Positions 14,143 through 21,731 of a DNA stretch of 27,547 nucleotides are shown here, piece after piece; the first letter of the stretch is position 1; the number at the start of each line of letters is the position of its first letter. The position numbers were made by a program, and so were the translations under genes. The DNA comes from Polyangiaceae bacterium (lineage in GTDB: Bacteria > Myxococcota_A > Polyangia > Polyangiales > Polyangiaceae): assembly GCA_035275365.1 (NCBI GenBank), contig DATEMX010000149.1:1-27547 (forward strand), written 5' to 3'. The notes below the pieces were generated by a model, which saw only the letters and a program-made list of their open reading frames with translations, did not search any database and had not been told where the DNA came from.

Positions 14143-14568
14143 TCATGTGAACGCTTGGCGAATGGCAAGAAGCGTCGCCAGCGCCGCTTCTTGGCTTTCG
14201 TATTTTTGCCGCGGCCAAAAGAAGCCGCGAAGGCCGTCTTTCTTTTTCCGCGGCACGACGTGCACGTGCAAGTGGGGCACGCTTTGACTGACGCGGTTGT
14301 TCATGGCCACGAAGGTGCCGTCGGCGCCGAGCCCCGCTTCGACGGCGCGCGCGACGCGCTGCACCTCGGTGAAGAGGTCCCCGAGCGCGCCGGGGGGAAC
14401 GTCGATGAGCGTTTCGGCGTGTGCGCGCGGGACGACGAGACAATGGCCCGGGAACACGGGACGGTGATCGAGAAAGGCGACGACCGTCGGCGTCTCGTGC
14501 ACGAGGTGCGTGGCGAGCTCGCCGCGCATGATCTTGCAGAAGAGGCACGCGGCAGCGCCGGCGTTCAT
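14143..14568 (-). CDS. HIT family (histidine triad) nucleotide hydrolase
   Basis: C-terminal 141 aa of the 14143..15813 track ORF, true start ATG 14568: CLFCKI, AFLDHRPVFPGHCLVVPRAH, QSVPHLHVHVVPR. ATG overlaps the upstream stop (ATGA). Confidence 0.92.
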   Translation of the reverse strand: MNAGAAACLFCKIMRGELATHLVHETPTVVAFLDHRPVFPGHCLVVPRAHAETLIDVPPGALGDLFTEVQRVARAVEAGLGADGTFVAMNNRVSQSVPHLHVHVVPRKKKDGLRGFFWPRQKYESQEAALATLLAIRQAFT

Positions 14569-15668
14569 TTCGCGCCGAGCAATTTGATCTGGCGCAAGGC
14601 CTCGGCGCGCGCCGGGTGATCGGAGGGTGCGTCGCTCATGAAGCGCTGAAAGAGCGGCCTGGCCTCGGCCGGCTTCTTCATGAAATCGGCGAACAAGACG
14701 GCGAGGTTGAACTCGGCCTCCACGTTGTGGGGGTCCTTCACGAGCACGCCTTCGAGGATCTTCTGGGCCTCGTTCCACTTCGCCGCGTGATCCTTGTCGC
14801 CTTGACCGCGCAGCGCGGCGGCGAGGCCGATGGCCGCGTCGTCGTCCTCTTTGGCGTCCTTCAGCACGGTGCGAAATTGCTCTTCGGCCTTCGGGTAAAT
14901 GCCTGCTCGGAGGAGCACGGTACCCATGTTGAGGCGCGCGGTCGTGTCCTTGGGATCGAGCTGGGAGGCCTTCACGAACGACGAAAACGCGGCGGCGTCG
15001 TCGCCCTTCGCCAGCGCGATGAGGCCCGAGGTGCGGTGCGCGATGGCGCTCTCCTTGTTGGCCGAGATGGCCTCTTTGACGAGCAGCTCCGCGGAGTCGC
15101 GCTCGCCCTTGGCGAGATGCGCGAGCGCGAGATCGGAGAGCGCCGTCGCGTCGCCCGCGCGCCGGCGAAGCGACTCGCGCGCCTCTGCAATGGCGGCGTC
15201 GAGTTGCCCCGAGTCGCGCAGCGCGACGACGTAGAGCGAACGTGCCTCCTTGGCGTCGGGGTGTTGCTCGACGAAGGCCTGCAAGCCCAGGGAGGCCTTC
15301 TTGTTCTCGCCGCGCCTCCGGCGCACTTGGCCGAGCGCGGTGGCGATCTCCTCGGCGGCCGGCGCGAGCTTGGCAGCCTTCTCGAGCGACGGCTCGGCGC
15401 CGGCGAGATCGCCGCCTTGCGCGAGGAGCACGCCGAGATCGTAGTGCGCCTCCCAAAAATTCGGATCGATGGCGACGGCCTCGCGCATGAGGGTAACCGC
15501 GCGCTCCCGGCCGCTTGGGCTCTTGGCGGCTTCTACGCCGGCCAGCATCTTGGCCGCGGCCTGGGGAACGGCGGGCGCCGTGCCCGGCGTGGCAACGGCC
15601 TTGGTCTTGGCGCCACCTCCGCAGCCATAGGTGATGGCGGCGATCAAGAGAGCCCAGCGCGCCTTCAC
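14565..15668 (-). CDS. TPR-repeat lipoprotein, GltE/AglT/NfsE-like
   Basis: GTG 15668 overlaps the upstream stop (GTGA). VKARWALLIAAITYGC lipobox; many TPR-like units (AHYDLGVLL, ARLNMGTVLL, AEFNLAVLF). Glt similarity is by recalled architecture and position. Confidence 0.85.
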   Translation of the reverse strand: MKARWALLIAAITYGCGGGAKTKAVATPGTAPAVPQAAAKMLAGVEAAKSPSGRERAVTLMREAVAIDPNFWEAHYDLGVLLAQGGDLAGAEPSLEKAAKLAPAAEEIATALGQVRRRRGENKKASLGLQAFVEQHPDAKEARSLYVVALRDSGQLDAAIAEARESLRRRAGDATALSDLALAHLAKGERDSAELLVKEAISANKESAIAHRTSGLIALAKGDDAAAFSSFVKASQLDPKDTTARLNMGTVLLRAGIYPKAEEQFRTVLKDAKEDDDAAIGLAAALRGQGDKDHAAKWNEAQKILEGVLVKDPHNVEAEFNLAVLFADFMKKPAEARPLFQRFMSDAPSDHPARAEALRQIKLLGAK

Positions 15669-20955: not shown

Positions 20956-21731
20956 TTGCTCGCCCGGGCGCGCACGCGCACGCGCAAGTCGTAGCTGCCT
21001 CGTTGGCCCGACGGGAAGTCGGACATGTCGGAGTCGTCGGAGATGCGAACGATGGTCTCGAGCTTTTGGTTTTCAGGCACCTCGAGGGTGACCCGCGAGT
21101 TTTGGCCGGTGCGGAACGTTTCGCCGCGATCATCGCGTCGATCGACGTCGACGCCGAGGACGTGACGCCCCGGAGCGACCGCGTGATCGTAGACGACGAG
21201 CTCGTCGTCGGCCGAAAAGCTGCCCGGCGCCGTGTACACGATGCCTTCGTCGAGGCTGAGCGCCAGCTTGCCGATCTTCGCGTGATCGCCTCGCGTCTCG
21301 ATCTTGACCACGATGCGACTCTTGAAGAGCGTGTCGCCGATCGCCGCGACGCGCGCGCGCAGCGTGGCGATGTCGCCGAGAATCTTGTCGAGCTCGGCGG
21401 GCGTAGAAACGGCGCCGCCGTCGGGAAACTCGTCGGCGCGCGGATTCAAGGGCGAGCTGCGAACACCGGCGTCGCCGTACGTCTTCGCCGATTCAGGCGG
21501 CAGAAGGGCGGCGCTACCTGCTGGAACGGGCGCCTCGGCCGCGGGTGCTTCTTCTTCGGCAGCCTTCGGCTTCTCTTCGGGCGCCTCGGGCTTGGCCTCT
21601 CTGGTAGAGGAAGCGGCGGCCGGCGTCTTGGGCTTGGGCTTGCCCCGTACGACCTTCTTTCCCTGCGCAAGCACCAGGGTCGTCACCGCGAGAGATGCCA
21701 CTAGCAGCCTGAAAGCGAGAGGGCGACGCAT
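20952..21731 (-). CDS. Hypothetical secreted protein (Pro/Ala/Glu-rich linker, short coiled coil, beta-rich C-terminal domain)
   Basis: Signal-like MRRPLAFRLLVASLAVTTLVLA; low-complexity linker; ELDKILGDIATLRARVAAIG helix; beta-strand-rich end. Stop overlaps the downstream GTG (GTGA). Confidence 0.8.
   Translation of the reverse strand: MRRPLAFRLLVASLAVTTLVLAQGKKVVRGKPKPKTPAAASSTREAKPEAPEEKPKAAEEEAPAAEAPVPAGSAALLPPESAKTYGDAGVRSSPLNPRADEFPDGGAVSTPAELDKILGDIATLRARVAAIGDTLFKSRIVVKIETRGDHAKIGKLALSLDEGIVYTAPGSFSADDELVVYDHAVAPGRHVLGVDVDRRDDRGETFRTGQNSRVTLEVPENQKLETIVRISDDSDMSDFPSGQRGSYDLRVRVRARASK

What the first reader, a model, noticed from the sequence alone, without database searches (positions are those of the whole stretch)
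14143..21731. Reduced Glt/Nfs-like C-D-E module with a new upstream subunit and no motor or barrel genes
Seen: five genes whose four junctions all overlap (GTGA, TGATG, GTGA, ATGA), implying one translationally coupled operon; four products carry export signals. Established: in Myxococcus xanthus GltC, GltD/AgmU and GltE/AglT (paralogues NfsC-D-E, in that order) form part of trans-envelope machines together with outer-membrane barrels GltA/B/H, TonB-like GltG, GltF and the AglRQS proton motor. Inference from recalled C-terminal motifs and order: this is a paralogous C-D-E scaffold lacking A, B, F, G, H and motor genes, with an unrelated secreted protein in front and a HIT hydrolase behind. It could be a distinct envelope machine of unknown function rather than the gliding apparatus.
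Basis: partly seen in the sequence, partly recalled or inferred. Interest (0 to 1): 0.72.

Follow-up and report, generated by a model that had tools for sequence, protein, structure and literature searches.

The report
Scaffold operon of dispersed Glt-like machine
This operon encodes the periplasmic scaffold of a little-known relative of the Myxococcus gliding and spore-coat (Glt/Nfs) envelope machines; it carries an extra, unnamed subunit, and its outer-membrane barrel and TonB-like parts are not missing but sit on other contigs of the same genome.

Summary
Five minus-strand genes at 14143-21731 are joined by GTGA, TGATG, GTGA and ATGA overlaps. Four products have signal or lipoprotein leaders.

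Genes 2-4 are true but distant homologues of GltC, GltD and GltE. They are not the canonical gliding orthologues, because the same genome has a closer GltC/D/E set.

The "reduced machine" reading holds only for this locus. In Labilithrix luteola and in many of the related Polyangiales loci with enough flank, the same lineage ("type X") is one cluster: OMP_myx_plus barrel, g1, C, D, E, a small F-like gene and a GltG/J-like TonB-C protein. In this genus the barrel gene (contig C92) and the F+G genes (contig C726) have moved away, and a HIT hydrolase gene sits behind E.

Lack of motor genes in cis is not diagnostic: in M. xanthus the aglRQS motor genes (cluster M1) lie apart from the glt clusters.

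The upstream protein g1 has a helix plus a PEGA-like beta-sandwich and is not a barrel. Its family has at least 1,966 unnamed proteins. Members also precede GltC-like genes in G4-like and motor-linked clusters, but were not found in the Glt/Nfs-type sets I checked. A complex model supports g1 binding to C (0.80 against 0.02 for the best control).

A Haliangium cluster in Luciano et al. 2011 (Hoch_3957-3964) looks like the same type. The scan has noted other Glt-like clusters before, but not this lineage.

Verdict: a new variant of a known kind, of moderate interest.

The parts
20952..21731 (-). g1: secreted 259-aa protein. It has a signal peptide, a roughly 70-residue Pro/Ala/Glu/Lys linker, a 25-residue helix and an 8-strand PEGA/CarboxypepD_reg-like beta-sandwich. 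It is the predicted partner of the GltC-like protein.
   Evidence: ORF. No Pfam or NCBIfam hit. AF2 model has pLDDT 87.8. Fold matches are to beta-sandwiches, not OM barrels. Invariant residues are D161, P187, G188 and H190. The family has at least 1,966 unnamed proteins. Complex with C: ipSAE 0.80 against best control 0.02.
18922..20955 (-). g2: GltC-like periplasmic TPR/coiled-coil protein (677 aa, signal peptide). It ends in a WPFEGDDWPDEY-type motif.
   Evidence: NF033756 gliding_GltC: E 2.9e-25, 89 bits, model positions 55-441 of 622, below the equivalog cut-off of 450. 49% mean column identity across 20 type-X orthologues. GTGA overlap with g1.
15665..18922 (-). g3: GltD/AgmU-like giant TPR protein (1085 aa, signal peptide).
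   Evidence: Repeated YbgF/BamD-like TPR units (TIGR02795, 135.7 bits in 5 stretches; Pfam TPR families). The profile of 11 orthologues hits D proteins of GltC-linked sets at E 1e-120 to 1e-140 over their full length. IQ-TREE placement.
14565..15668 (-). g4: GltE/AglT-like TPR lipoprotein (367 aa, GTG start at 15668, conserved xxCGG lipobox).
   Evidence: NF033758 gliding_GltE: 79.5 bits, E 2.4e-22, below the cut-off of 225, among many TPR families. Its position after D is kept in all loci. Lipobox alignment.
14143..14568 (-). g5: cytoplasmic HIT-family hydrolase (141 aa, HLHVHVV triad), translationally coupled to g4. A passenger gene, not part of the conserved system.
   Evidence: PF01230 HIT, 86.5 bits. 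It lies behind g4 only in same-genus loci L017, L031 and L032, and in none of about 90 other loci.
21732..22366 (-). Non-coding stretch of about 630 bp, lower in G+C, upstream of g1. Presumed promoter region of the operon.
   Evidence: No supported ORF. G+C falls to 0.57 at 22001-23000. No sigma-70 consensus match was found, so the promoter is inferred, not shown.

Best explanation
The operon encodes the periplasmic scaffold of a complete, genomically dispersed Glt/Nfs-type trans-envelope system, called 'type X' here and found in class Polyangia. The scaffold consists of g1, a GltC-like protein, a GltD-like protein and a GltE-like lipoprotein. In this genus the remaining parts are on other contigs: an OMP_myx_plus outer-membrane barrel on C92, and a small GltF-like protein plus an inner-membrane GltG/J-like TonB-C protein on C726. 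In Labilithrix luteola and in many related loci with enough flank, all seven genes form one cluster. Shown: homology, gene order, orthologue locations, the g1 fold and a supported g1-C interface model. Inferred by analogy with Agl-Glt and Nfs: a MotA/ExbB-ExbD-type proton channel encoded elsewhere (5 MotA/ExbB genes in this 72%-complete genome) energises the TonB-like G protein. G then acts through the g1:C-D-E scaffold on the outer-membrane barrel, to move or hold an unknown surface cargo. The HIT hydrolase is a recent passenger gene.
For: Homology: the GltC and GltE models hit g2 and g4. The D profile hits D proteins of GltC-linked sets at E 1e-120 to 1e-140. Paralogy: the genome has two more sets. 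The first is C725+C454, where GltC scores 194.8 bits. The second is C747+C562. In the D tree, type X forms a 100/100 clade that groups with the Glt/Nfs-type sets, apart from the G4-like and motor-linked sets. Full cluster in relatives: the barrel lies upstream of g1 in 27 of 40 loci with room, and the G-like gene lies downstream in 26 of 70. A conserved F-like ORF lies between E and G. The barrel matches TIGR04565 at 97 bits (cut-off 60). The G-like protein matches NF033768 at 94-101 bits (cut-off 40) and the GltG model at 78-95 bits. Orthologues in the own genome: C92 is 66% identical to the Labilithrix barrel. C726 F is 77% identical over 57 residues to a typed consensus of the F-like ORFs. 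C726 G is 56-71% identical to the Labilithrix G. Each is the only strong hit in the genome. g1-C binding model: ipSAE 0.80, 0.81 and 0.78, best of 3 controls 0.02, runs agree in at least 73% of contacts, partner pLDDT at least 72. The mark was reached by 58 of 80 solved complexes and 2 of 110 mismatched pairs, and own alignments were used, so these counts hold only roughly. Luciano et al. 2011 (PMC3169522) place aglRQS in a cluster (M1) separate from the glt clusters.
Against: No experiment or expression data exists for any type-X gene. No motor could be assigned. None lies near the cluster, even in the complete Labilithrix genome, which has 9 MotA/ExbB genes elsewhere. The barrel and F/G genes on C92 and C726 are called orthologues from best hits and identity levels only. 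The genome is a 72%-complete MAG with 820 contigs. In some Polyangiales genomes g1-C and D-E are separated by unrelated genes, so the four proteins need not always be co-expressed. Type X was found in only about half of the genera sampled in this family, so it is dispensable. The tree root is a midpoint root.
Confidence: 0.7

Rival explanations
1. A self-sufficient reduced C-D-E machine: a periplasmic scaffold that works with g1 alone and needs no barrel, no TonB-like protein and no motor.
For: In this genus none of those genes lies within 5.8 kb upstream or 14 kb downstream. The same-genus loci L017 and L032 share the layout. In some other genomes the G-like gene is also not within about 4.7 kb.
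Against: Single best orthologues of the type-X barrel, F and G are kept intact elsewhere in this genome, at the same identity level as the scaffold genes. In many relatives with enough flank they are contiguous with g1-C-D-E.
Confidence: 0.12
2. These are the organism's canonical gliding (Glt) genes, with the remaining subunits simply encoded elsewhere.
For: C-D-E order, and hits to the GltC and GltE models. Polyangiales glide, which I state from general knowledge.
Against: GltC scores 89 bits (77 in the genome scan) against a cut-off of 450. Another locus in the same genome scores 194.8 bits and continues with D, E and an FHA protein. That set, not the window's, groups with the set whose C scores 414 bits on the GltC model. 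Type X was not found in about half of the sampled genera of this family.
Confidence: 0.08
3. A passive envelope-tethering or assembly scaffold of the Tol-Pal CpoB or BamD kind. It stabilises the outer membrane and has no energised movement.
For: D matches the YbgF/CpoB TPR unit five times (135.7 bits) and BamD (63.6 bits). C and D match YfiO weakly. No motor is linked.
Against: The matches are to generic TPR units in a 1085-aa protein, not to the CpoB architecture. The lineage keeps a TonB-C-type G protein with the AgmX/PglI tail. Its nearest non-Polyangia relatives carry MotA plus two ExbD genes in the cluster.
Confidence: 0.1

Closest known systems
Myxococcus xanthus Nfs system (nfsA-H, cluster G3; Luciano et al. 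2011, PMC3169522)
   Same: The order barrel(s)-C-D-E-F-G in one cluster in relatives. A periplasmic TPR scaffold plus a TonB-like G protein. No motor genes inside the cluster. In the D tree type X groups with the Glt/Nfs-type sets.
   Different: Type X has the extra g1 gene between the barrel and C. Only one barrel gene was detected next to g1 in the Polyangiales loci, and no H-like gene was seen in the cluster, though I did not search for one. It is a separate lineage (GltC model 89 bits). In this genus it is split over three loci. No link to sporulation has been tested.
Haliangium ochraceum cluster Hoch_3957-3964 (Table S3 of Luciano et al. 2011)
   Same: It is listed as B-like (228 aa), A-like (268 aa), a gap at Hoch_3959, then C (689), D (1058), E (395), F (185) and a TonB-family G (474). 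Sizes and order match type X: C 677, D 1085, E 367, and G about 450-470 aa. Class-level relatives L148 and L149 have this layout.
   Different: Hoch_3959, at the g1 position, was not assigned to any Glt family. The cluster's function is unknown.
M. xanthus G4 (MXAN_1919-1923) and G5 (MXAN_1327-1331) Glt paralogue clusters of unknown function
   Same: They are Glt-like C/D/E(F/G) sets that do not affect motility when disrupted. G4-like clusters in other genomes also start with a g1-family gene.
   Different: The D tree puts G4-like sets in the other major clade. G5 has a different gene order.
Agl/Glt 'core complex' (aglRQS + gltC, D, E, G) of Luciano et al. 2011
   Same: The C-D-E scaffold plus a TonB-like G. 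Distant Myxococcota clusters with g1-like, C, D, E, MotA and two ExbD genes show this form.
   Different: The window and all type-X loci lack motor genes in cis. The extra gene described for non-myxobacterial core complexes falls between E and aglR by the locus-tag gaps in the 2011 tables, not in front of C.

Membership tests
Glt/Nfs-type envelope systems (Agl-Glt core-complex superfamily) | GltC homologue | tested here: met
   NF033756: E 2.9e-25, 89 bits, positions 55-441 of 622. This shows homology only.
Glt/Nfs-type envelope systems (Agl-Glt core-complex superfamily) | GltD homologue (giant TPR protein encoded after C) | tested here: met
   No GltD model matched any of the D proteins scanned. 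Profile A2 hits D proteins adjacent to GltC-like genes at E 1e-120 to 1e-140 over their full length. Tree.
Glt/Nfs-type envelope systems (Agl-Glt core-complex superfamily) | GltE homologue (TPR lipoprotein after D) | tested here: met
   NF033758: 79.5 bits, E 2.4e-22. Conserved lipobox. Conserved position.
Glt/Nfs-type envelope systems (Agl-Glt core-complex superfamily) | TonB-like GltG/GltJ-type inner-membrane protein | tested here: met
   Not in the window. The orthologue is on contig C726: NF033768 at 94.3 bits (cut-off 40) and the GltG model at 78.3 bits. It lies after E in 26 of 70 related loci.
Glt/Nfs-type envelope systems (Agl-Glt core-complex superfamily) | Small GltF-type protein | tested here: inconclusive
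   A conserved small ORF lies between E and G in relatives and upstream of G on C726. It is assigned by position and by likeness to the F of contig C562. It was not scanned against any curated family library.
Glt/Nfs-type envelope systems (Agl-Glt core-complex superfamily) | Outer-membrane beta-barrel(s) of GltA/GltB type | tested here: inconclusive
   A TIGR04565 OMP_myx_plus barrel (97 bits, cut-off 60) is on C92 and lies upstream of g1 in 27 of 40 loci. Whether GltA and GltB belong to that model was not tested.
Glt/Nfs-type envelope systems (Agl-Glt core-complex superfamily) | AglRQS-type MotA/ExbB-ExbD motor | not testable with these tools
   There are 5 MotA/ExbB genes in the genome, none linked to the operon, and 9 in Labilithrix, none near the cluster. 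Which one, if any, serves type X cannot be told from sequence.
Canonical gliding machine (GltC/GltE equivalogs) | Score above the NCBIfam equivalog cut-offs | tested here: not met
   GltC 89 against 450 bits, and GltE 79.5 against 225 bits. A closer GltC paralogue exists in the same genome.
Tol-Pal CpoB/YbgF | Protein of about 260 aa with a coiled coil plus one TPR domain, in a tol-pal operon | tested here: not met
   TIGR02795 matches five separate TPR stretches of a 1085-aa protein. There is no tol-pal context.
PEGA / carboxypeptidase-regulatory-like beta-sandwich (for g1) | Sequence match to the Pfam families | tested here: not met
   No Pfam hit for g1 or for 34 family members. Only fold-level likeness, plus LDG...PGxH motifs that resemble the PEGA consensus as I recall it.
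HIT hydrolases (g5) | HIT domain with a histidine triad | tested here: met
   PF01230 at 86.5 bits. HLHVHVV is present in the sequence.

The most novel reading that the evidence does not exclude
The g1 family is a so far unrecognised, GltC-binding core subunit of the non-canonical Glt-like machines: type X, G4-like and motor-linked core clusters. It would have been lost only in the Glt/Nfs gliding and spore-coat lineages. On this reading, type X is a separate proton-motive-force-driven envelope conveyor of Polyangia with its own, still unknown, cargo.
Probability: 0.4. Interest if true: 0.55.

Novelty: new variant of a known kind. Interest (0 to 1): 0.42.

Why it matters
Glt-like clusters are a large family of envelope machines, and only two members (gliding Glt and spore-coat Nfs) have known jobs. 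This work defines one more lineage across class Polyangia and shows that its parts can be scattered in a genome, so "reduced" loci should not be read as reduced machines. It also identifies a conserved, unnamed subunit family, with at least 1,966 members and no Pfam entry, that is predicted to dock on the GltC-like protein. That family marks the non-canonical lineages. Labilithrix luteola DSM 27648 is a named strain with a complete genome that carries the whole cluster in one piece. If it can be handled genetically, the function is directly testable.

Tried and rejected
- The g1 alignment A1 was too variable for the search for related loci, so I used the D alignment instead.
- g1 and 34 relatives have no Pfam or NCBIfam family. 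Foldseek against the PDB gave no match with E below 1e-3. An OM-barrel fold for g1 is rejected, because the matches are to beta-sandwiches.
- A search for g1 fused to TPR proteins found only forms of 346-427 aa. The single AlphaFold DB row with a 693-aa TPR protein stays an untested lead.
- NF033757 and NF033755 proved to be CglB and CglE, not GltD or GltA/B.
- No genome among 151 sampled reached the GltC equivalog cut-off, so M. xanthus could not be picked out. Relations to G4 and G5 therefore rest on layout and on an unnamed family, f46.
- No sigma-70-like promoter was found, and terminator-like sites did not exceed the number in shuffled sequence.
- No g1-like gene was found in the Glt/Nfs-type sets L163, L164, L165, C454 and C725, even at E 10.
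- Literature searches found nothing on this lineage or on the MXAN_1924 position.
- Unrelated genes separate g1-C from D-E in some genomes. I read these as insertions, not as parts of the system.
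Full report
**Observation.**
The window is contig C149 of a 72%-complete, 820-contig MAG. Its nearest named relatives are Polyangiaceae/Polyangiales MAGs and Labilithrix luteola.

Codon-position G+C supports five minus-strand genes between 14143 and 21731:
- g1, 20952-21731, 259 aa
- g2, 18922-20955, 677 aa
- g3, 15665-18922, 1085 aa
- g4, 14565-15668, 367 aa
- g5, 14143-14568, 141 aa

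g1, g2 and g3 begin with signal-peptide-like leaders. g4 has an xxCGG lipobox that is kept in all 13 orthologues inspected.

**What the genes are.**
- g2 matches the NCBIfam GltC equivalog model at E 2.9e-25 and 89 bits, far below its cut-off of 450.
- g4 matches the GltE model at 79.5 bits (cut-off 225), among many generic TPR families.
- g3 is a giant TPR protein with five YbgF-like units.
- g5 is a HIT hydrolase.
- g1 has no family at all.

No GltD model matched any D protein I scanned. However, a profile of 11 g3 orthologues (A2) hits, over their full length, D proteins that sit next to GltC-like genes in other Myxococcota, at E 1e-120 to 1e-140.

**This is not the canonical set.**
The same genome holds two more sets:
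- C725+C454, where GltC scores 194.8 bits, followed by D, E and an FHA protein.
- C747+C562, with a g1 paralogue, C, D, E, F and a GltG-like protein.

An IQ-TREE tree of 25 D proteins has two fully supported halves.
- One half holds clusters that start with a g1-like gene and continue with F-G or with MotA plus two ExbD genes. It includes own C562 and the second Labilithrix copy.
- The other half holds the Glt/Nfs-type sets. These are own C454 with the f46 set whose C scores 414 bits on the GltC model, plus a second f46 set.
- Grouped with that second half is a 100/100 clade that I call type X: the window, eight Polyangiales orthologues and three class-level relatives.

The root is a midpoint root only.

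**The "reduced" layout is local.**
g1-C-D-E is conserved in order in every complete locus first fetched and in most of 94 loci. The HIT gene follows only in the same genus. Outside that genus:
- An OMP_myx_plus barrel gene (TIGR04565, 97-98 bits, cut-off 60) lies just upstream of g1 in 27 of 40 loci with room.
- A protein with the AgmX/PglI tail (NF033768, 94-101 bits, cut-off 40; GltG model 78-95 bits) lies downstream of E in 26 of 70 loci.
- Between E and that protein lies a conserved small ORF ending ...RVFRFGEVEIEGRL..PQLVYFLRRVRAEF..., which resembles the F gene of contig C562.

In the complete genome of Labilithrix luteola the cluster is barrel, g1, C, D, E, F, G. It is followed by an AcrB pump gene, and an AcrB gene also lies downstream of the operon in the window.

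In the window's own genome:
- The barrel orthologue is on C92, 66% identical to the Labilithrix barrel.
- The F and G orthologues lie side by side on C726. F is 77% identical over 57 residues to a typed consensus of the F-like ORFs. G is 56-71% identical to the Labilithrix G.
- Each is the only strong hit in the genome.

So the system is complete apart from a motor, but it is dispersed. Motor genes are unlinked here (5 MotA/ExbB genes) and in Labilithrix (9 genes). This does not distinguish type X, because Luciano et al. 2011 place aglRQS in a cluster (M1) separate from the glt clusters.

**The upstream subunit.**
- The C-terminal 160 residues of g1 fold with confidence (pLDDT 87.8) into a 25-residue helix and an eight-strand beta-sandwich.
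- The fold resembles carboxypeptidase-regulatory-like, PEGA and DUF4382 domains, not OmpA-type barrels.
- Invariant residues form LDG...PGxH motifs.
- The family is large, with at least 1,966 proteins, all "hypothetical" and without Pfam domains.
- It is not special to this module. A profile finds weaker members across Myxococcota, and in all 12 loci examined the hit lies directly upstream of C-, D- and E-like genes. Several of those clusters continue with MotA/ExbD/ExbD or with F and a TonB-C protein.
- The own genome and Labilithrix each have a second copy in front of their G4-like set.
- No member was found in the Glt/Nfs-type sets I checked.
- A complex model of g1 with C passed its controls. 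The scores were 0.80, 0.81 and 0.78 against 0.02 for the best of 3 controls. The runs agreed in at least 73% of contacts, and the partner's pLDDT was at least 72. The mark was reached by 58 of 80 solved complexes and 2 of 110 mismatched pairs. Because own alignments were used, these counts hold only roughly.
- In the model the g1 helix packs against two helices in the C-terminal half of C, and the sandwich edge touches the N-terminal TPR region. This supports binding but does not show it.

**Mechanism.**
Shown:
- the homology and the conserved seven-gene cluster in relatives;
- the dispersed orthologues in this genome;
- the g1 fold and the modelled g1-C interface.

Inferred by analogy with Agl-Glt and Nfs: the G-like protein has an FHA-like N-terminus, one membrane helix, a Gly/Pro-rich linker and a TonB-C tail (its layout read by eye from the sequence; the tail matched by model). 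A MotA/ExbB-ExbD channel encoded elsewhere would energise it. Force or conformational change would then pass through the D/E/C:g1 scaffold to the outer-membrane barrel. The cargo is unknown, and no polysaccharide, adhesin or other cargo gene is conserved next to type X.

**Comparison with the literature.**
- Luciano et al. 2011 (PMC3169522) defined the core complex (aglRQS plus gltC, D, E, G). They listed several paralogous clusters of unknown function.
- Their table for Sorangium shows only the two other set types.
- Their table for Haliangium ochraceum lists Hoch_3957-3964: B-like, A-like, a gap at 3959, then C 689, D 1058, E 395, F 185 and a TonB-family G 474. Sizes and order match type X, and the unlisted gene sits at the g1 position. 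This is an inference from sizes, because I could not fetch those sequences.
- I found no paper on this lineage or on the g1 family.
- Earlier notes of this scan describe other Glt-like clusters, mostly G4-like or adhesin-headed, but not this lineage.

**Verdict.**
The operon is real and conserved. Its "no barrel, no F, no G" reading does not stand at the level of the genome. I rate it a new variant of a known kind. Its main new content is the g1 family and the well-defined, testable type-X lineage.

Noticed in passing
L167:8911-11041 and L168:760-2890: In two metagenomic contigs a g1-family gene (346 aa) lies directly downstream of a Roadblock/LC7 gene (159 aa) and a Ras/Arf-like GTPase gene (194 aa), and upstream of C/D-like TPR genes. 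As I recall, mglB-mglA lie next to the G4 cluster in M. xanthus. If so, the g1 homologue there would be the gene just after mglA. I did not check this against named sequences.
   Followed up: partly
own genome contigs C747 (L161:1421-4211) and C562 (L160:2-10126): This is a second g1-bearing Glt-like set in the same genome: g1 paralogue, C, D, E, a 101-aa F, a GltG-like protein, then a 462-aa and a 213-aa secreted protein. Its D is very divergent (46 bits on the type-X profile).
   Followed up: partly
L035, L039, L068 (g2 to g3 gaps); L047, L073, L084 and others: In several Polyangiales genomes g1-C is separated from D-E by 1.5-5.5 kb of unrelated genes, some on the other strand. In others g1-C is absent from the 6 kb upstream of D. 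So g1+C and D+E behave as two sub-modules, as gltC and gltDE do in M. xanthus.
   Followed up: partly
window 6671-11238 (-) and L154:7195-10335: An RND efflux pair (HlyD-type 379 aa, AcrB 1138 aa) lies downstream of the operon. An AcrB gene also follows the type-X cluster in Labilithrix. This suggests residual synteny around the place where F and G were lost from this locus.
   Followed up: no
window 13249-14031 (-): A 260-aa protein with an apparent signal peptide lies just downstream of the HIT gene. It has no Pfam family and no match in any related locus examined.
   Followed up: no
L023:6139-9376 and L165:8347-12254: The D genes of these two loci are split into two overlapping ORFs, by a frameshift or an assembly error. 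They were left out of the tree.
   Followed up: no
window 22001-23000: G+C drops to 0.57, against 0.65-0.70 around it, just upstream of the operon. The ORFs there have no Pfam family.
   Followed up: no
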